From contig CAWATY010000007.1 in NCBI GenBank assembly GCA_963785115.1, positions 192,408-256,407 on the forward strand: a DNA stretch of 64,000 nucleotides. The letters are read 5' to 3'. This DNA comes from an uncultured Actinomycetota bacterium (GTDB lineage: Bacteria; Actinomycetota; Actinomycetes; Propionibacteriales; Nocardioidaceae). Within the stretch, counting starts at the first letter, position 1. Every line of letters begins with the position of its first letter. Both the position numbers and the translations under genes were made by a program. A model generated the notes under the pieces. That model was not told where the DNA came from. It ran no database searches and was given only the letters and a program-made list of their open reading frames with translations. Shown here in pieces: positions 2,510 through 47,356 of this stretch.

Positions 2510-3243
2510 GCGGTGTCCTGGCCCCCGGTGTCCTGGCCCCCGGCCCGGTCGACGGCGTCGTCGAGCAGCAGTCGCCAGGAGCGGACCAGCTTGGAGTCGG
2601 TGTAGGCCTTGGCCCACGAACCGCCGCCGGGGCGCACCGCGGTGCCGACATGGACGCGCCGCACGCCGGCCCGGACCAGCCACGGCACGTGCTCGGGCTG
2701 CAGCCCGCCCGTCGCGATCGCCAGCCCCGCGATGGTCGCGTCGGCCTCGGCCGCCTCGATCAGGGCCTGGTGCCCCTGCTCGGCCCCCAGGGCCGAGCCC
2801 GCGGTCAGCACGCCGTCGACCCACGGCAGCGCCTGCACCCTCCGCCAGGAGCGGCGCGGGTCGAGCGTCTTGTCGAAGACCCGGGTGAACGTCCAGGGGA
2901 TGCGCAGCCGGTCGGCCAGCTCGGCGCAGACCGCGGAGTCGATCTCGAGGTCGGTGTCGAGGAAGCCGAACGCGACGCCCTCGGCGCCGGCGGCCAGGTA
3001 GTCCGTCGCCAGGCCGGTCAGTCGGTCCAGCTCACCGCCGGTCGTGCTGTCACCGTCGTCGAGGCGCAGCACCGCCCGCAGCGGCAGGTCGGTGACCCGG
3101 CGCACCGACGACAACACGACGGGCTCGACCGAGCGCAGGCCACGGTGTTCGGCCGCGCCGACCAGCAGCCGGTGGGCGCCGCCCTCCTGGGCGGCCTCGG
3201 CGTCGGCCGGGTGCGCCACGCGTACCTCGAGCAGCGGGTCCAT
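2506..3243 (-). CDS. cutC: CutC-family copper homeostasis protein
   Basis: MDPLLEVRVAHPADAEAAQEGGAHRLLV...GVAFGFLD...RVFD...VLTAG...GGL matches the CutC TIM-barrel pattern. I chose the ATG at 3243. Confidence 0.75.
   Translation of the reverse strand: MDPLLEVRVAHPADAEAAQEGGAHRLLVGAAEHRGLRSVEPVVLSSVRRVTDLPLRAVLRLDDGDSTTGGELDRLTGLATDYLAAGAEGVAFGFLDTDLEIDSAVCAELADRLRIPWTFTRVFDKTLDPRRSWRRVQALPWVDGVLTAGSALGAEQGHQALIEAAEADATIAGLAIATGGLQPEHVPWLVRAGVRRVHVGTAVRPGGGSWAKAYTDSKLVRSWRLLLDDAVDRAGGQDTGGQDTA
2511..2540. repeat. 15-nt tandem duplication (cggtgtcctggcccc x2) giving GGQDTGGQDT at the CutC C-terminus
   Basis: Direct reading of the sequence. It lies immediately upstream of the downstream GTG start. 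Confidence 0.9.
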
Positions 3244-32453: not shown

Positions 32454-32729
32454 TCAGCCGCCCGCGACGGCCGGGATGATCGACAGCTGGGCGCCGTCGG
32501 CCACCGGGGTGGCCACGCCGTCGGCGAAGCGCACGTCGTCGTTGTCGACGTACACGTTGACGAACCGGCGTAGCGCGCCCTGCTCGTCGACGATCCGCTG
32601 CTTGATGCCGGGGTGGTCGGACTCCAGCGCGTCGAGCACCTCGCCCACGGTGGAGCCCTGCGAGGGGACCTCCTTGGCGCCACCGGTGTAGGTCCGCAGC
32701 ACGGTCGGCACCCGCACGGTGACGCTCAT
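32454..32729 (-). CDS. MoaD/ThiS-family sulfur-carrier protein ending in GG (candidate MetO/CysO-type)
   Basis: MSVTVRVPTVLRTYTGGAKEV...VNVYVDNDDVRF...LSIIPAVAGG. ATGA overlap with the upstream ThrC-like gene. Confidence 0.85.
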   Translation of the reverse strand: MSVTVRVPTVLRTYTGGAKEVPSQGSTVGEVLDALESDHPGIKQRIVDEQGALRRFVNVYVDNDDVRFADGVATPVADGAQLSIIPAVAGG

Positions 32730-34009
32730 GCGAGCCCCGCCTCGGTGAACGCCTCGTAGGTGGGCGCAATGGTGGCCGTAGGCCCCACCCGGTCGGCCAC
32801 GGCATTGAGCGTCTTCAGGCCGTCGCCGGTGTTGAAGACGACCGTCTCGGCGTCGGGATCGAGCTGGCCGCTCTCGAGCAGCTTCTTGAGGGTCGCGATC
32901 GTCACGCCGCCAGCGGTCTCGGCGAAGATGCCCTCGGTGCGGGCCAGCAGCGAGATGCCGGACCGGATCTCCTCGTCGGTCACCGACTCGACAGCGCCGC
33001 CGGTCCGGCGGGCCACGTCGAGCACGTACGGGCCGTCGGCCGGGTTCCCGATGGCCAGCGACTTGGCGATCGTGTCGGGCCGCACCGGCCGGACGACGTC
33101 GTGCCCCTCGGCGTACGCGGTGGCGACCGGCGAGCAGCCGGTGGCCTGGGCGCCGAACACCCGGTAGGGCGTCGGCTCGACCAGCCCGTGCCGGCCGAGC
33201 TCGCCGAAGCCCTTGTCGACCTTGGTGAGCTGGGAGCCGGAGGCGACGGGCACGACGACCTGCTCAGGCAGCCGCCAGCCCAGCTGCTCGGCGACCTCGA
33301 AGGCCAGCGTCTTGGAGCCCTCGGAGTAGTAGGGGCGCACGTTGACGTTGACGAACGCCCAGTCCTCCTGCTCGCCGGCGATCTCGGAGGCCAGCCGGTT
33401 GACGTCGTCGTAGGTGCCGTCGACGGCGACCAGGGTGCCGCCGTAGACGGCGGTGGTGAGGATCTTGGGCTGCTCGAGGTCCTGCGGGATCAGCACCACG
33501 CTGCGGATGCCCGCGCGAGCGGCCGCGGCGGCCGTCGCGTTGGCGAGGTTGCCCGTCGACGGGCAGGCCAGCACCGTGAAGCCGAGCTCGCGGGCGGCGG
33601 TGAGGGCGACCGCCACCACCCGGTCCTTGAACGAGTGCGTCGGGTTGCCCGAGTCGTCCTTGACCCACAGCGTCTTGATGCCGAGCTCGCGGGCGAGGTT
33701 GTCGGCGCGTACCAGCCGGGTCATGCCGGGGTCGGTGCTGGGGAACGTCGCGACGTCGACCGGCACCGGCAGCAACGGCTGGTAGCGCCAGATGCTGCGC
33801 GGTCCGGCGGCCAGCTGCTCGCGGGTCACGGTCAGGTCGGGGTCGTACGCGACCTCGAGGGGGCCGAAGCACTCCGGACACGCGTAGACCGCGCCGAGCT
33901 CCTGGCGGACCCCACACTCGCGACAGGACAGCGCGACCGCGTTGCCGAATGCTCCGTCGCGCACGGCGCCCGCAGGCGACCGGGTCGGGACGAGGGTGGA
34001 CGTGCTCAC
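32726..34009 (-). CDS. threonine synthase-family PLP enzyme with N-terminal Cys4 zinc ribbon (candidate MetM-type homocysteine synthase)
   Basis: The GTG at 34009 lies 10 nt after GAAGGAG. LSCRECGVRQELGAVYACPECFGPLEV is the zinc ribbon. NPTHSFKDRVVAVAL carries the PLP lysine. GNLANATAAAAARAGI follows. Confidence 0.85.
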   Translation of the reverse strand: MSTSTLVPTRSPAGAVRDGAFGNAVALSCRECGVRQELGAVYACPECFGPLEVAYDPDLTVTREQLAAGPRSIWRYQPLLPVPVDVATFPSTDPGMTRLVRADNLARELGIKTLWVKDDSGNPTHSFKDRVVAVALTAARELGFTVLACPSTGNLANATAAAAARAGIRSVVLIPQDLEQPKILTTAVYGGTLVAVDGTYDDVNRLASEIAGEQEDWAFVNVNVRPYYSEGSKTLAFEVAEQLGWRLPEQVVVPVASGSQLTKVDKGFGELGRHGLVEPTPYRVFGAQATGCSPVATAYAEGHDVVRPVRPDTIAKSLAIGNPADGPYVLDVARRTGGAVESVTDEEIRSGISLLARTEGIFAETAGGVTIATLKKLLESGQLDPDAETVVFNTGDGLKTLNAVADRVGPTATIAPTYEAFTEAGLA

Positions 34010-34025
34010 AGGCTCAGCGCTCCTT

Positions 34026-34142
34026 CTCATCTTCCCCGGGGCGTCTCTCGCCGCGGGACGGAGTTGGCACCTGGCCACGCGTGACGCGCGTGGTGGGTTG
34101 CCGGGGCTTCACCGGGCCGTTCCCTCTGCCCCTCTGGATGAG
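34026..34142 (-). promoter_or_regulatory. SAM-I (S-box) riboswitch
   Basis: The minus strand reads CTCATCCAGAGGGGCAGAGGGAACGGCCCGGTGAAGCCCCGGCAACC...GGTGCCAACTCC...GAAGATGAG. P1 pairs CTCATC with GATGAG. GA motifs and the GGCAACC and GGTGCCAA-TCC cores are present. The SD follows directly after P1. Confidence 0.85.
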
Positions 34143-34209
34143 CAGGTTCGAGCGTAGGCGGCCGAGCGGGACGGGGCCGAATCACCCGTCCATCATGTGG
34201 ATGGCCGTC

Positions 34210-34644
34210 TCAGCTAGTGGACTCGTGGTGGCGGGTGCCATGGGTGCGGCGGCGCTCCTTCATCTCCGCCTCGTACAGGTGCCGACGGCCGGCGACCAGC
34301 GCCTCGCGGGCGTCGTGTTCCAGCTCCTTGAAGGTCGCGTAGTAGCCGTCGTCGTACTCCTCGACGACCTGGAAGCTCCATCTGCCCTCGGCGATGTTGC
34401 GACCGACCAGCTCGGTGTCGATCCGGTCGGCCAGCTCACCGTGTCCGGCCGCCCGCAACATGTCGACCGCCTCGCCGACGGCCAGGTCGGCGGTGCCGCA
34501 CATGCGGTGGAAGCCGTAGAGCAGGCCGCGGGCGTGCTCGACCACCTCGAGCGCCTCGGACAGCTTGCCGAGCGCCTCGACGGTGGCGTCGTCGACGCCG
34601 TCCGGGCGCTGGTGCTGCGGCGCCGGGGTCTCGCGGTCGCTCAT
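34210..34644 (-). CDS. hypothetical protein (conserved-looking, cytoplasmic)
   Basis: MSDRETPAPQHQRPDGVDDATVEALGKLSEALEVVEHARGLLYGFHRMCGTADL... ATGA overlap with the otsB stop. Confidence 0.6.
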   Translation of the reverse strand: MSDRETPAPQHQRPDGVDDATVEALGKLSEALEVVEHARGLLYGFHRMCGTADLAVGEAVDMLRAAGHGELADRIDTELVGRNIAEGRWSFQVVEEYDDGYYATFKELEHDAREALVAGRRHLYEAEMKERRRTHGTRHHESTS

Positions 34645-35477
34645 CGGGCCTCCGCCAGTCGGTCGCCCAGCGCGCCGAGCCACGCCACCACTCCGCCCGG
34701 GCCGTCCAGCACCAGGTCGGCACGGGCGGACAGGCCGGGCCCGTCGCTGCCGGCCGACCAGATCAGCAGCCCGTTTCCGCCGGCCTCCCGGTACCGCTCC
34801 ACGGCGTCGTAGGCGGCGGCATCACCCAGGTCGTCGCCGGCGTAGACGACGGTGCCCGCACCGGAGTCGGCGAGCAGCTCGTCGATGGCGCCACCCTTGT
34901 CGGCGCCCGGCGCGCGCAGCTCGAGCACGTGCTTGCCCGGCTCGACGTGCAGGTCGACCTCGGTGGCCAGCGCATCCAGCGGCTCGCGCAGACGCTCCAT
35001 GGCGCCGGCCGGGTCTGCCGTACGACGCAGGTGCACGACGAGCGCACGACCTTTGTCCTCGACCTGGGCGTCGGCGAGGTCGAGCCCGGCCAGCAGCTCC
35101 GGCAGCCGCTGCCGCGCCTGCTCGACCCCCGGCGGCGGGGGCGGGCCGTCGGTCTCACCGGTCCGGGCGTCCCACCGCTCGACGCCGTACTGACCGAGCA
35201 CCCGCAGCCCGGACAGCCCGTCAGCACCGGCGAACCCGCCGAGCTCGAGGACCTGGGCCACCGACCGCCCGGTGACCACCGCGACACCGCGCAGGTGACC
35301 GGCCAGCCGGCCGAGGACGCCGACCGCGTCGGGGTGCGCGTAGGCACGGGCGGGGTCGTCGATGATCGGCGAGAGAACGCCGTCGAAGTCGGAGGCCAGC
35401 AGGGCGTCACCCGGGTCGTCCAGCAGCGCCGCGAGCGCCGCCCGACCCGCATCCGTCGTGGGCTCGGCGAGGGCCAT
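34641..35477 (-). CDS. otsB: trehalose-phosphatase
   Basis: The HAD motif LLASDFDGVLSPI is followed by VAVVTGRSV, LELRAPGADKGGAI and VVYAGDDLGD. Confidence 0.88.
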   Translation of the reverse strand: MALAEPTTDAGRAALAALLDDPGDALLASDFDGVLSPIIDDPARAYAHPDAVGVLGRLAGHLRGVAVVTGRSVAQVLELGGFAGADGLSGLRVLGQYGVERWDARTGETDGPPPPPGVEQARQRLPELLAGLDLADAQVEDKGRALVVHLRRTADPAGAMERLREPLDALATEVDLHVEPGKHVLELRAPGADKGGAIDELLADSGAGTVVYAGDDLGDAAAYDAVERYREAGGNGLLIWSAGSDGPGLSARADLVLDGPGGVVAWLGALGDRLAEAR

Positions 35478-36330: not shown

Positions 36331-36542
36331 GCAGCGACTCCGATCGGCGGAGCGGACAGGTCGGACGGGCTGAGCTCGGACGCACCCCATCGTAGGCGAC
36401 GAACCACAACGGTGTCATTCGCCACGACGGTTGTCCCCAGAGTGTCGCAAGTGCCCGACGCCCGCCGCGACCCGGCCCGGCGACCCCTGAGCGCGCTCAC
36501 CTCCGGATGCGGGTCGCCGCGGGCTGGGTAGGGTCGGCGCAA

Positions 36543-37994
36543 ATGGCTCGCAAGGGGACGCGGCGCGGCGCGGACGCCGGCCAGGCAGACCTGGTCGTGG
36601 TCGCCAATCGGCTGCCGGTCGACCGCACGGTCGACGACGACGGCAGCACCAGCTGGCAGACGTCGCCGGGCGGGCTGGTGACCGCGCTCGAGCCGGTGAT
36701 GCGCTCCAACGACGGCGCCTGGATCGGCTGGCACGGCGGCGATGACGACGTGGACCCGTTCGAGCACGAGGGCCTGCAGCTGGTGCCGGTGGCCCTCGCG
36801 ACCGACGAGGTCGAGGAGTACTACGAGGGCTTCTCCAACGCCACGTTGTGGCCGCTCTACCACGACGTGATCGCGCCTCCGGAGTTCCACCGGGAGTGGT
36901 GGGACTCCTACGTCGCGGTCAACCGCCGCTTCGCCGAGCGCGCCGTCGAGGTCGCGGCCGAGGGCGCGGTCGTGTGGGTGCAGGACTACCAGCTGCAGCT
37001 GGTCCCCCAGATGCTGCGCGAGAAGCGCCCGGACCTGCGGATCGGCTTCTTCCTGCACATCCCGTTCCCGCCGATGGAGCTGTTCAGCCAGATCCCGTGG
37101 CGCCGGCAGCTGATCGAGGGCCTGCTCGGGGCCGACCTGGTGGGCTTCCAGCTGCCGGGGGCAGCGGCCAACTTCATCCGGCTGGTACGCAGCCGCGTGG
37201 GCCACAAGACGCACCGCGACTCGGTCTACCTGCCGGACGGGCGCACCGTGCTGGCCCGGGCGTACCCGATCTCGATCGACACCCAGGGCCTCGAGGACCT
37301 CGCTCGCCGCCCGGAGACGACCGCGCGGGCCGCCGAGATCCGCGAGCAGCTCGGCAACCCCCGCCAGGTGCTGCTGGGCGTCGACCGGCTCGACTACACC
37401 AAGGGCATCACCGAGCGGTTGCGCGCGTACGGCGAGCTGGTCGAGGACGAGGTCATCGATCCCGCCGAGACGGTGTTCGTGCAGGTCGCCACGCCGTCGC
37501 GGGAGCGGGTCGAGCAGTACCGGGTGCTGCGCGACGACATCGACCGGTTGGTGGGACGGATCAACGGCGAGCTCGGCCAGATCGGCGCGCCGCCGATCAC
37601 GTACCTGCACAGCTCCTACCCCCGCAGCGAGATGGCGGCGCTGTTCCGGGCGGCCGACGTCATGGTGGTGACGCCGCTGCGCGACGGGATGAACCTGGTG
37701 GCCAAGGAGTACGTCGCCTGTCGCTTCGAGGACGACGGCGCGCTGGTGCTCAGCGAGTTCGCCGGCGCGGCCGCCGAGCTCAAGCAGGCCTTCCACGTCA
37801 ACCCCTACGACATCAACGGCCTCAAGTCGGCGATGCTCGCCTCGCTGCGCTCCGACCCGCGCGACCTGGGTCGCCGGATGCGCGCGATGCGCAAGCAGGT
37901 GCGGGACAACGACATCGCCAAGTGGGCGTCCAGCTTCCTCGAGGAGCTGCGCCGCGACCACCCCCCGCACGGCAAGACCCCCCGCCCCGTCTGA
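36543..37994 (+). CDS. otsA: alpha,alpha-trehalose-phosphate synthase (UDP-forming)
   Basis: [13 protein letters not shown]...[12 protein letters not shown]...WIGWHG...[12 protein letters not shown]...[15 protein letters not shown]...FFLHIPFP...[15 protein letters not shown]. The GTG at 36507 is an alternative start. Confidence 0.93.
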
Positions 37995-47284: not shown

Positions 47285-47356
47285 AGCCGGCGGGGGACTC
47301 GAACCCCCAACCTCCTGTTTACAAGACAGGTGCGCTGCCAGTTGCGCCACGCCGGC
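47285..47356 (-). tRNA. tRNA-Thr (anticodon UGU)
   Basis: Minus strand: GCCGGCG-TG-GCGC-AACTGGCA-GCGC-A-CCTGT-CTTGTAA-ACAGG-AGGTT-GGGGG-TTCGAGT-CCCCC-CGCCGGC-T. All four stems pair perfectly. CCA is not encoded. Confidence 0.92.

What the first reader, a model, noticed from the sequence alone, without database searches (positions are those of the whole stretch)
32454..34142. SAM-I riboswitch in front of a ThrC-like enzyme plus GG-terminated sulfur carrier: probable MetM/MetO homocysteine route rather than threonine synthase
A textbook S-box aptamer (34026-34142, minus strand) directly precedes the SD and GTG of a threonine synthase-family gene. That gene is translationally coupled (ATGA) to a 91-aa MoaD/ThiS-fold protein ending in GG. 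SAM riboswitches control Met/SAM genes, not threonine synthesis. A ThrC homologue (MetM) with a thiocarboxylated carrier (MetO) has been reported in Streptomyces to convert O-phosphohomoserine to homocysteine; this is my recollection of that literature. Homology-based annotation would most likely call the gene thrC. The enzyme also carries an N-terminal CxxC...CxxC zinc ribbon. No adenylating/sulfurtransferase (MoeZ-type) or JAMM partner is adjacent.
Basis: partly seen in the sequence, partly recalled or inferred. Interest (0 to 1): 0.6.

Follow-up and report, generated by a model that had tools for sequence, protein, structure and literature searches.

The report
SAM-controlled MetM/MetO homocysteine synthase operon
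A SAM-sensing RNA switch controls a gene that databases call "threonine synthase" but that is an orthologue of MetM, which makes the methionine precursor homocysteine with a small sulfur-carrier protein; the pathway was published in 2024, so this is a correct reading of a known system and not a new one.

Summary

- **Elements.** An RF00162 aptamer (73.6 bits, window 34024-34144, minus strand) abuts the SD and GTG of a 427-aa ThrC-family enzyme with a CxxC...CxxC ribbon. That gene overlaps by ATGA a 91-aa ThiS-fold carrier ending in GG.
- **Match to the characterised enzyme.** I recovered the characterised MetM (UniProt A0A059WBP2, record BHXC01000007.1). The window enzyme is 66% identical to it. 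The housekeeping ThrC is only 32% identical to it.
- **Phylogeny.** In a tree of 113 ThrC-family genes from 61 genomes of the class plus that enzyme, the riboswitch-linked genes and the characterised MetM form one clade (SH-aLRT 100). The hom/thrB-linked ThrC genes form a separate clade.
- **Own genome.** It has a canonical hom-thrC-thrB cluster, one MoeZ, and a mec-cysO-cysM cluster. It has no MetX or MetA, so O-phosphohomoserine is the only activated homoserine found.
- **Class-wide pattern.** 48 of 52 SAM-I riboswitches precede this gene. Its presence anticorrelates with MetX/MetA (Fisher p = 4e-5).

Enzyme activity and SAM binding remain inferred. Novelty: new member of a known kind. Interest: low to moderate.

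The parts
34024..34144 (-). SAM-I (S-box) riboswitch aptamer, RF00162
   Evidence: cmscan 73.6 bits, gathering score 44.4, E = 2.3e-15, full-length model match. It is the only RF00162 in the genome. An aptamer lies in the same place in 78 of 80 orthologous loci and in the characterised S. albulus locus.
34020..34027 (-). Shine-Dalgarno sequence AGAAGGAG; its first 4 nt are the last 4 nt of the P1 3' strand
   Evidence: Read from the sequence. In 78 of 79 leaders a GGAG-type SD starts at the aptamer's 3' end and the start codon follows 8-17 nt later. There is no terminator.
32726..34009 (-). metM-like gene: a 427-aa PLP enzyme of the ThrC family, predicted O-phosphohomoserine-dependent homocysteine synthase (GTG start, TGA stop)
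   Evidence: PALP and TIGR00260 matches. 66% identity to the characterised MetM A0A059WBP2. Same clade at SH-aLRT 100, with the MetM residue at all 45 discriminating positions.
33869..33925 (-). N-terminal zinc ribbon, C29-x2-C32 ... C44-x2-C47
   Evidence: Translation. Present in all 49 MetM-clade genes and in none of 55 canonical ThrC genes. Solved ThrC structures align only from residue ~70 onward.
33626..33628 (-). Codon of the PLP-binding lysine K128 in the motif SFKDR
   Evidence: This motif is invariant in both the MetM-like and ThrC clades. That this lysine binds PLP rests on general knowledge of fold-type II PLP enzymes.
32454..32729 (-). metO-like gene: a 91-aa ThiS/MoaD-fold sulfur carrier ending in Gly-Gly, overlapping metM by ATGA
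   Evidence: Pfam ThiS 64.9 bits. 63% identity to the S. albulus MetO. Best PDB matches are 4n6e_B and 3dwg_C, the latter being the CysO carrier by my own identification. A carrier lies directly downstream in 54 of 80 and 33 of 49 orthologous loci.

Best explanation
This is a SAM-repressed metM-metO operon for the O-phosphohomoserine (OPH) route to homocysteine.

Proposed pathway:
1. Homoserine kinase (ThrB, contig C31) makes OPH.
2. The ThrC-like PLP enzyme MetM eliminates phosphate. Instead of adding water at C-beta, as ThrC does, it accepts sulfur at C-gamma from the C-terminal thiocarboxylate of the carrier MetO, giving homocysteine.
3. MetO-COSH is made by the genome's single MoeZ (an adenylyltransferase/sulfurtransferase with a rhodanese domain, contig C6). 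That MoeZ probably also serves the CysO of the mec-cysO-cysM cluster on C19.
4. The JAMM protease Mec may release a carrier-amino acid adduct. This carrier already ends in GG, so it should not need C-terminal trimming.

Proposed regulation: when SAM is plentiful it closes the aptamer's P1 helix. The 3' strand of P1 overlaps the SD, and the start codon lies 14 nt further on, so translation initiation is blocked. There is no room for a terminator and none is found.

Shown here: the RNA family match, orthology to the characterised MetM, conservation of the operon, presence of all partner genes, and absence of MetX/MetA.

Inferred: the chemistry (by orthology, from papers that cite Hasebe 2024, which I could not read), SAM binding, the direction of the switch (OFF), and which carrier MoeZ and Mec act on.
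For: - RF00162 scores 73.6 bits and is the only copy in the genome.
- The characterised MetM was identified as P0248 = UniRef100_A0A059WBP2 / GCB92938.1. It is encoded on BHXC01000007.1, the accession that PMC12172450 gives for S. albulus metM.
- The window enzyme is 66% identical to it over 414 aa. The genome's hom-linked ThrC is 32% identical to it.
- In the ML tree of 113 rows, the 48 riboswitch-linked genes, one contig-edge gene and the characterised MetM form a clade with SH-aLRT 100 and a stem of 1.33. The 55 hom/thrB-linked genes form another clade with SH-aLRT 100.
- Identities to the query are bimodal, 64-80% or 39% and below, with nothing between.
- The reference locus has the same layout: RF00162 at 74.2 bits, then metM, then a 92-aa ThiS carrier.
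- Partner genes: MoeZ NF005902 at 718.6 bits against a cut-off of 647; Prok-JAB at 108 bits next to a GG-ended carrier and cysM; thrB TIGR00191 at 182 bits against 168.
- No MetX (best 29 bits) and no MetA.
- Across 61 genomes, MetM-positive genomes split 10 with and 38 without MetX/MetA. MetM-negative genomes split 11 with and 2 without. Fisher p = 4.4e-5.
- 48 of 52 SAM-I riboswitches in those genomes precede this gene.
- The SD abuts P1 in 78 of 79 leaders.
Against: - No biochemical or genetic data exist for this organism.
- The primary paper (Hasebe et al. 2024) is not in the library, so what MetM does rests on three papers that cite it.
- 26 of 80 close loci and 16 of 49 class-wide orthologues have no carrier gene next to metM. 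An adjacent carrier is therefore not obligatory, and free sulfide or a shared carrier cannot be excluded.
- The carrier is as similar to the genome's own CysO-like protein (58%) as to MetO (63%). The CysO-like protein is itself 62% identical to MetO. "MetO" is therefore assigned by position only.
- A test for a conserved anti-SD in the 5' flank was negative: duplex dG -4.96 against -5.14 for shuffles, p = 0.14. How the SD is masked is not resolved beyond its overlap with P1.
- The genome is a 96%-complete draft, so absence of MetX/MetA is not absolute.
- Three Cys/Met-metabolism PLP paralogues exist, one a MetB-type gene above its cut-off. They could in principle give a parallel plant-like OPH transsulfuration route.
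Confidence: 0.88

Rival explanations
1. The enzyme is a MetM-type OPH sulfhydrylase that takes sulfur mainly from free sulfide, or from the CysO carrier encoded elsewhere. On this view the adjacent carrier is dispensable or has another role. The product and regulation are the same; the sulfur donor differs.
For: 26 of 80 close loci and 16 of 49 class-wide orthologues lack an adjacent carrier but keep the riboswitch and the enzyme. In those loci the conserved neighbours (cold-shock protein, GroEL) simply follow metM directly. PMC12172450 describes adding Na2S to OPH to mimic the MetM activity. MetO-like and CysO-like carriers cannot be told apart by identity.
Against: In this window the carrier is translationally coupled to the enzyme by an ATGA overlap. 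It is kept in about two thirds of loci. GapMind lists MetM as MetO-thiocarboxylate-dependent with experimental evidence.
Confidence: 0.07
2. It is a genuine second threonine synthase placed under SAM control to balance the threonine/methionine branch point at O-phosphohomoserine.
For: It exceeds the curated cut-off of the thrC equivalog model TIGR00260, 283.9 against 167.1 bits. It keeps the SFKDR lysine motif and 61 positions that are invariant across both clades. All databases name it threonine synthase.
Against: A canonical ThrC already exists in hom-thrC-thrB, with 425 bits to the solved ThrC 2D1F. The gene is 35% identical to that ThrC but 66% identical to the characterised MetM. 45 positions conserved within each clade differ between the clades, including the GNAG-to-ASGS loop. 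It is coupled to a sulfur carrier. Its presence anticorrelates with MetX/MetA. SAM repression of a threonine synthase would be the opposite of the known plant logic, in which SAM activates threonine synthase (from my own knowledge).
Confidence: 0.03
3. The enzyme makes a different sulfur compound from OPH or a related substrate, for example cystathionine from cysteine (plant CGS-like chemistry) or a specialised thio-amino acid. On this view the carrier serves another pathway.
For: Substrate and product have not been measured for this protein. The ThrC family also contains cysteate synthase: TIGR03844 hits it weakly at 66 bits. CysO-type carriers are known to be co-opted by other pathways: 4n6e_B is the best PDB match to the carrier, and the identity of that entry as such a case rests on my own knowledge.
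Against: It is orthologous to an enzyme reported as a homocysteine synthase, with all 45 clade-specific residues shared. The gene is near-universal in the class and is not confined to biosynthetic clusters. SAM-riboswitch control and complementarity with MetX/MetA point to core methionine synthesis.
Confidence: 0.02

Closest known systems
MetM/MetO (with MoeZ and Mec) of Streptomyces albulus: O-phospho-L-homoserine route to homocysteine (Hasebe, Adachi, Maruyama, Hamano 2024, Appl Environ Microbiol 90:e0124724; cited in PMC13759103, PMC12172450 and bioRxiv 10.64898/2026.09.15.751699)
   Same: Same order of RF00162, metM and metO. The enzyme is 66% and the carrier 63% identical. Same tree clade and all 45 clade-specific residues. 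The zinc ribbon is present in both. MoeZ and Mec are unlinked in both. The SD abuts the aptamer in both. otsA/otsB lie nearby in both.
   Different: The host is a member of the Nocardioidaceae (closest relatives Mumia and Aeromicrobium), not Streptomyces. The carrier ends in GG, whereas S. albulus MetO ends in GGC, so no C-terminal trimming is needed here. The genes overlap by ATGA here instead of being 56 nt apart. This genome has no MetX or MetA, so the route appears to be the only one using an activated homoserine. Whether S. albulus has MetX could not be checked.
CysM/CysO/Mec/MoeZ of Mycobacterium tuberculosis: thiocarboxylate-dependent cysteine synthesis from O-phosphoserine. PDB 3DWG holds the carrier chain; its identification as the CysM-CysO complex, and the pathway details, are from my own knowledge.
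   Same: A ubiquitin-like GG carrier is activated by MoeZ and delivers sulfur to a fold-type II PLP enzyme acting on an O-phospho amino acid. The carrier here scores 97 bits, full length, against 3dwg_C. The genome carries its own mec-cysO-cysM cluster.
   Different: The PLP enzyme here is of the ThrC family, not the CysK/CysM family. The substrate is OPH, not O-phosphoserine, and the product is homocysteine, not cysteine. Control is by a SAM riboswitch.
Canonical threonine synthase ThrC (TIGR00260; solved structures 2D1F, 1UIM, 2ZSJ, 6CGQ)
   Same: Same fold, same PLP-lysine motif SFKDR and same substrate OPH. The window enzyme scores above the TIGR00260 cut-off and matches these structures at E of about 1e-47 to 1e-52.
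   Different: Only 31-38% identity. An extra ~70-residue N-terminal zinc ribbon. 45 clade-specific substitutions. No hom/thrB neighbours. Riboswitch and carrier present. The predicted reaction is gamma-replacement with sulfur instead of beta-addition of water.
HcyS/HcyF/HcyD with MetY of Wolinella succinogenes: protein-thiocarboxylate-dependent homocysteine synthesis (from my own knowledge; not checked here)
   Same: A GG sulfur-carrier thiocarboxylate donates sulfur to make homocysteine. A JAMM protease processes the carrier.
   Different: There the PLP enzyme is a MetY-type O-acetylhomoserine sulfhydrylase (Cys/Met-metabolism family) acting on an acylated homoserine. It is not a ThrC-family enzyme acting on OPH.
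Plant cystathionine gamma-synthase route from O-phosphohomoserine (mentioned in bioRxiv 10.64898/2026.09.15.751699)
   Same: It uses OPH, not an acyl-homoserine, as the branch-point substrate for methionine synthesis.
   Different: A different enzyme family (Cys_Met_Meta_PP), cysteine as sulfur donor, cystathionine as product, and no carrier protein.

Membership tests
MetM (ThrC-family, MetO-thiocarboxylate-dependent homocysteine synthase) | Orthology to the characterised enzyme (UniProt A0A059WBP2) | tested here: met
   66% identity over 414 aa. Same clade at SH-aLRT 100, with the clade residue at 45 of 45 discriminating positions. The accession was traced.
MetM (ThrC-family, MetO-thiocarboxylate-dependent homocysteine synthase) | It is a paralogue distinct from a separately encoded housekeeping ThrC | tested here: met
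   A canonical thrC lies in hom-thrC-thrB on C31. It scores 425 bits against 2D1F and is 35% identical to the window enzyme.
MetM (ThrC-family, MetO-thiocarboxylate-dependent homocysteine synthase) | SAM riboswitch upstream and metO downstream, as at the characterised locus | tested here: met
   Window. S. albulus locus L212. Conservation: 78 of 80 loci have the riboswitch and 54 of 80 have the carrier.
MetM (ThrC-family, MetO-thiocarboxylate-dependent homocysteine synthase) | Accessory MoeZ (carrier activation) and Mec (JAMM hydrolase) encoded in the genome | tested here: met
   MoeZ NF005902 at 718.6 bits against a cut-off of 647, and it is the only ThiF-family gene. Prok-JAB at 108 bits on C19, next to cysO-cysM. 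Whether they act on this carrier was not testable.
MetM (ThrC-family, MetO-thiocarboxylate-dependent homocysteine synthase) | Catalysis: OPH + MetO-COSH gives homocysteine; supports growth without methionine | not testable with these tools
   Needs an enzyme assay or genetics. Indirect support: no MetX or MetA in the genome, and anticorrelation across 61 genomes.
MetO / CysO-type sulfur carrier (ThiS/MoaD fold) | ThiS-family fold, about 90 aa, C-terminal Gly-Gly | tested here: met
   Pfam ThiS 64.9 bits. Ends AVAGG. 97-100 bits, full length, against 3dwg_C and 4n6e_B. 63% identical to S. albulus MetO.
MetO / CysO-type sulfur carrier (ThiS/MoaD fold) | Sequence distinguishes a methionine-pathway MetO from a cysteine-pathway CysO | tested here: inconclusive
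   The window carrier is 63% identical to MetO. The genome's CysO-like carrier is 62% identical to MetO. The two carriers of this genome are 58% identical to each other. Only gene position separates them.
SAM-I riboswitch (RF00162) | Covariance-model score above the gathering threshold over the full model | tested here: met
   73.6 bits against 44.4, model positions 1-108.
SAM-I riboswitch (RF00162) | Binds SAM and represses the downstream gene | not testable with these tools
   Inferred from family membership and from the SD overlapping P1. No terminator. The anti-SD test was negative.
Canonical threonine synthase (ThrC) | Score above the TIGR00260 equivalog cut-off | tested here: met
   283.9 against 167.1 bits. 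This is why it is annotated threonine synthase, but the model does not separate the two clades.
Canonical threonine synthase (ThrC) | Groups with hom/thrB-linked, structurally characterised ThrC | tested here: not met
   It lies outside the 55-member ThrC clade, SH-aLRT 100. It scores 164.7 bits against 2D1F, compared with 425 bits for the genome's real ThrC.
PRK08197-type 'threonine synthase' (NF006050) | Score above the NF006050 cut-off | tested here: not met
   283.3 against 303 bits. A different gene of this genome, on contig C6, scores 600 bits and falls outside both clades.

The most novel reading that the evidence does not exclude
In this organism, and in about four fifths of the MetM-bearing genomes of its class, the MetM route is not a back-up. 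It is the only way into homocysteine from an activated homoserine, because MetX and MetA are missing. That would make the carrier-thiocarboxylate/O-phosphohomoserine route the principal methionine pathway of most of this actinobacterial class, with the SAM-I riboswitch there almost wholly dedicated to it. In the third of loci without an adjacent carrier, MetM would have to share the CysO carrier or use sulfide.
Probability: 0.5. Interest if true: 0.45.

Novelty: new member of a known kind. Interest (0 to 1): 0.3.

Why it matters
There are three practical points.

1. **Annotation.** The curated thrC equivalog model TIGR00260 does not separate MetM from ThrC. Every orthologue seen here, including the characterised S. 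albulus protein itself, is still named "threonine synthase" in NCBI and UniRef. Metabolic reconstructions of these bacteria will therefore report a methionine gap and a spurious second thrC. The 45 clade-specific positions, the zinc ribbon and the riboswitch context give simple rules to fix this.

2. **Distribution.** The class-wide sample suggests the pathway is the rule in this class, not a Streptomyces curiosity: 48 of 61 genomes have it, and 38 of those lack MetX/MetA.

3. **Regulation.** The leader is a compact, conserved example of a SAM-I aptamer whose P1 helix overlaps the ribosome-binding site, which makes it a useful model for translational SAM-I control.

None of this changes the picture set by the 2024 discovery.

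Tried and rejected
- **Primary paper.** Hasebe et al. 2024 is not held under either its PMC id or its DOI. The GapMind supplements are not held either. Pathway facts come from three citing papers.
- **Reaching the reference protein.** The first homologue search listed only close Nocardioidaceae relatives. I reached Streptomyces by using the orthologue from an anonymous 8.5-Mb genome as a bridge query. I then found the reference accession among cluster members.
- **P1 extension masking the SD.** A fixed-register extension is not conserved: pairing frequencies are 0.16-0.59. Duplex energy between the 5' flank and the SD is no better than for shuffled flanks (-4.96 against -5.14, p = 0.14). Anti-SD tetramers are not enriched (10 against 11). 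I rejected this as a general mechanism, although the window's own MFE does pair the SD in an extended P1.
- **Terminator or sigma-70 promoter near the leader.** None was found.
- **NIL-domain third partner.** Earlier scan notes for other phyla suggested one. It is not present here: the neighbours are DUF6807, a 157-aa ORF with no family, and otsB. In carrier-less relatives the downstream genes are a cold-shock protein and GroEL.
- **SAM-IV riboswitch elsewhere in the genome.** None.
- **Structure prediction.** Not run. It would not discriminate between the hypotheses.
Full report
**Observation**

The window holds an RF00162 (SAM-I) aptamer at 34024-34144 on the minus strand. It scores 73.6 bits against a gathering score of 44.4, with E = 2.3e-15 and a full-length model match. 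It is the only RF00162 hit in the 4.4-Mb genome, and there is no SAM-IV riboswitch.

Directly after the P1 3' strand (…GAAGAUGAGAA) comes GGAG. The extended SD AGAAGGAG (34027-34020) therefore shares four bases with P1. A GTG at 34009 opens a 427-aa ORF that ends at 32726. Its TGA overlaps the ATG of a 91-aa ORF (32454-32729) as ATGA, and that ORF ends …AVAGG.

The large protein matches Pfam PALP and NCBIfam TIGR00260 thrC at 283.9 bits (cut-off 167.1). The small one matches Pfam ThiS. The N-terminus carries C29xxC32…C44xxC47.

**The literature**

The recalled pathway exists.
[quoted passage not shown] It cites Hasebe et al. 2024.
- PMC12172450 states that S. albulus metM has an upstream SAM riboswitch and gives the record as BHXC01000007.
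- A 2026 preprint states that B. subtilis ThrC is only 33% identical to MetM.

The primary paper is not in the library.

**Direct comparison with the characterised enzyme**

The first homologue search returned only close relatives from Mumia, Aeromicrobium, Solicola and Nocardioidaceae. All are named "threonine synthase". I then used the orthologue from an anonymous 8.5-Mb genome as a bridge query and reached Streptomyces proteins. In one cluster I found P0248, which carries UniRef100_A0A059WBP2 and GCB92938.1. It is encoded on BHXC01000007.1.

- The window enzyme is 66% identical to it over 414 residues, zinc ribbon included.
- The genome's other thrC is 32% identical to it.
- The reference locus has RF00162 (74.2 bits), metM, and a 92-aa ThiS-family gene 56 nt downstream.
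- The carrier here is 63% identical to that MetO.

**Is it a separate lineage from ThrC?**

The genome has three ThrC-family genes.
1. The one on C31 sits between hom and thrB, next to rho, lysA and argS. It matches the solved ThrC 2D1F at 425 bits over its full length. The window enzyme scores only 164.7 bits against 2D1F, and only from residue ~70 onward.
2. The window gene.
3. A PRK08197-type gene on C6.

I sampled 61 genomes (52 genera) of the class for all ThrC-family genes and for all RF00162 hits, fetched 110 loci, and labelled each gene by its context. The result is bimodal.

| Group | Identity to window enzyme | Zinc ribbon | Riboswitch | hom/thrB neighbour | Carrier downstream |
|---|---|---|---|---|---|
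| 49 genes | 64-80% | all | 48 (the other is cut by a contig end) | none | 33 |
| 55 genes | 32-39% (62-73% to the C31 ThrC) | none | none | all | none |

An ML tree gives each group SH-aLRT 100 on a long stem. With the characterised MetM added, it falls inside the first clade, nearest the two Streptomyces genomes. It has the clade's residue at all 45 positions that are conserved within each clade but differ between them.

**Pathway context**

The genome has the following:
- thrB (TIGR00191, above its cut-off);
- a single ThiF-family gene that is a MoeZ (718.6 bits against 647);
- a JAMM gene next to a GG-ended carrier and cysM, which is the mec-cysO-cysM order.

It has no MetX (best hit 29 bits) and no MetA. 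None of its three Cys/Met-metabolism PLP paralogues reaches a MetY or MetZ cut-off; one is a MetB-type gene. O-phosphohomoserine is thus the only activated homoserine found.

Across the 61 genomes:

| | With MetX/MetA | Without MetX/MetA |
|---|---|---|
| MetM-positive | 10 | 38 |
| MetM-negative | 11 | 2 |

Fisher p = 4.4e-5. The genomes are related, so the p-value overstates independence, but 52 genera are represented.

48 of the 52 SAM-I riboswitches in these genomes lie 190-260 nt upstream of the conserved core of this gene. In one MetM-negative genome the riboswitch instead lies about 1.5 kb upstream of metX on the same strand.

**Regulatory mechanism**

In 78 of 79 leaders a GGAG-type SD begins at the aptamer's 3' end, and the start codon follows 8-17 nt later. 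No terminator or sigma-70 promoter was found. This points to control of translation initiation through P1 closure.

In the window's MFE fold the SD is paired in an extended P1. A general P1 extension or 5' anti-SD is not supported. The detail of masking is therefore inferred from the overlap only.

otsB lies upstream on the same strand in 43 of 80 loci. A translational switch would allow independent control inside a longer transcript. This is inference.

**Caveats**

- Function rests on orthology.
- An adjacent carrier is missing in a third of the loci.
- MetO and CysO cannot be told apart by sequence.
- The genome is a draft.
- MetE/MetH were not searched for.

**Verdict**

It is a Nocardioidaceae member of the published MetM/MetO system. 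It differs in small ways: a GG carrier end instead of GGC, ATGA coupling, and no MetX/MetA. Earlier notes of this scan report the same operon type in over 200 genomes; I treat those as unchecked leads only. Novelty: new member of a known kind. Interest: 0.3.

Noticed in passing
Genome contig C6:14887-16104 (-), outside the window (locus L003): A third ThrC-family gene of 406 aa with a partial ribbon (CPRC...C). It scores 600 bits on NF006050 (PRK08197 'threonine synthase', cut-off 303) but only 151 bits on TIGR00260. It has no riboswitch, carrier or hom/thrB neighbour and lies outside both the MetM and ThrC clades. Similar genes occur in only a few of the 61 genomes. Its function is unknown.
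   Followed up: partly
Genome contigs C19:198460-200239 and C25:36444-37668, outside the window: The mec-cysO-cysM cluster appears on two contigs with identical scores (JAMM 108.4 bits on both, PALP 37.5 bits on both). This is either an assembly duplicate or a real duplication; contamination is given as 3.8%.
   Followed up: no
L212:3001-3035 (S. albulus BHXC01000007.1): The annotated start of the characterised MetM (436 aa, GTG at 3001) lies inside the riboswitch aptamer (2859-3016). An ATG at 3035, preceded by GGAGAAAGGG, fits the geometry seen in 78 other leaders. The database N-terminus is therefore probably about 11 residues too long.
   Followed up: partly
L010-L089 and L102-L211, downstream of metM: Carrier C-termini vary. 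Among the close loci 47 end in VAGG, but some carry extra residues after GG: GGC, GGS, GGA, GGQR and GGCC. The characterised S. albulus MetO itself ends in GGC. Those carriers would need a JAMM protease to expose GG, and the window's carrier would not.
   Followed up: partly
26 of the loci L010-L089, for example L073, L075, L081 and L025: These loci keep the riboswitch and metM but have no carrier gene. Where enough downstream sequence was available and an ORF could be called (L025, L073, L075, L081), metM is followed directly by a cold-shock protein or GroEL, the genes that follow metO in S. albulus. The carrier has been lost from a conserved neighbourhood.
   Followed up: partly
Genome G009:C1:577614-580268 (anonymous genome of the class): In a genome without metM, the single SAM-I riboswitch lies about 1.5 kb upstream of metX on the same strand, leaving room for a metY-sized gene. 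Where MetM is absent, the riboswitch seems to control the acyl-homoserine route instead.
   Followed up: no
window 34210-34683 (-): A 157-aa ORF between otsB and the riboswitch has no Pfam or NCBIfam match. It is conserved upstream of metM in only 5 of 80 related loci. Its 5' end overlaps the otsB ORF, so the true start is probably further downstream.
   Followed up: partly
window 34641-35477 (-) and 36507-37994 (+): The trehalose genes otsB (Trehalose_PPase) and otsA (Glyco_transf_20) flank the operon. otsB is upstream on the same strand in 43 of 80 loci, and otsA is next to metM in S. albulus. This synteny is long-lived, with no evident functional link.
   Followed up: partly
window 47285-47356 (-): A tRNA gene scores 61.1 bits on RF00005. 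From the printed anticodon loop (CUUGUAA) it appears to be tRNA-Thr(UGU).
   Followed up: no
NCBIfam TIGR01392 (technical): The curated cut-off shown for the MetX model (500 bits) is not reached by any hit, not even the clear MetX genes of control genomes, whose best scores are about 360-443 bits. Presence had to be judged from bit scores and not from the cut-off flag.
   Followed up: yes
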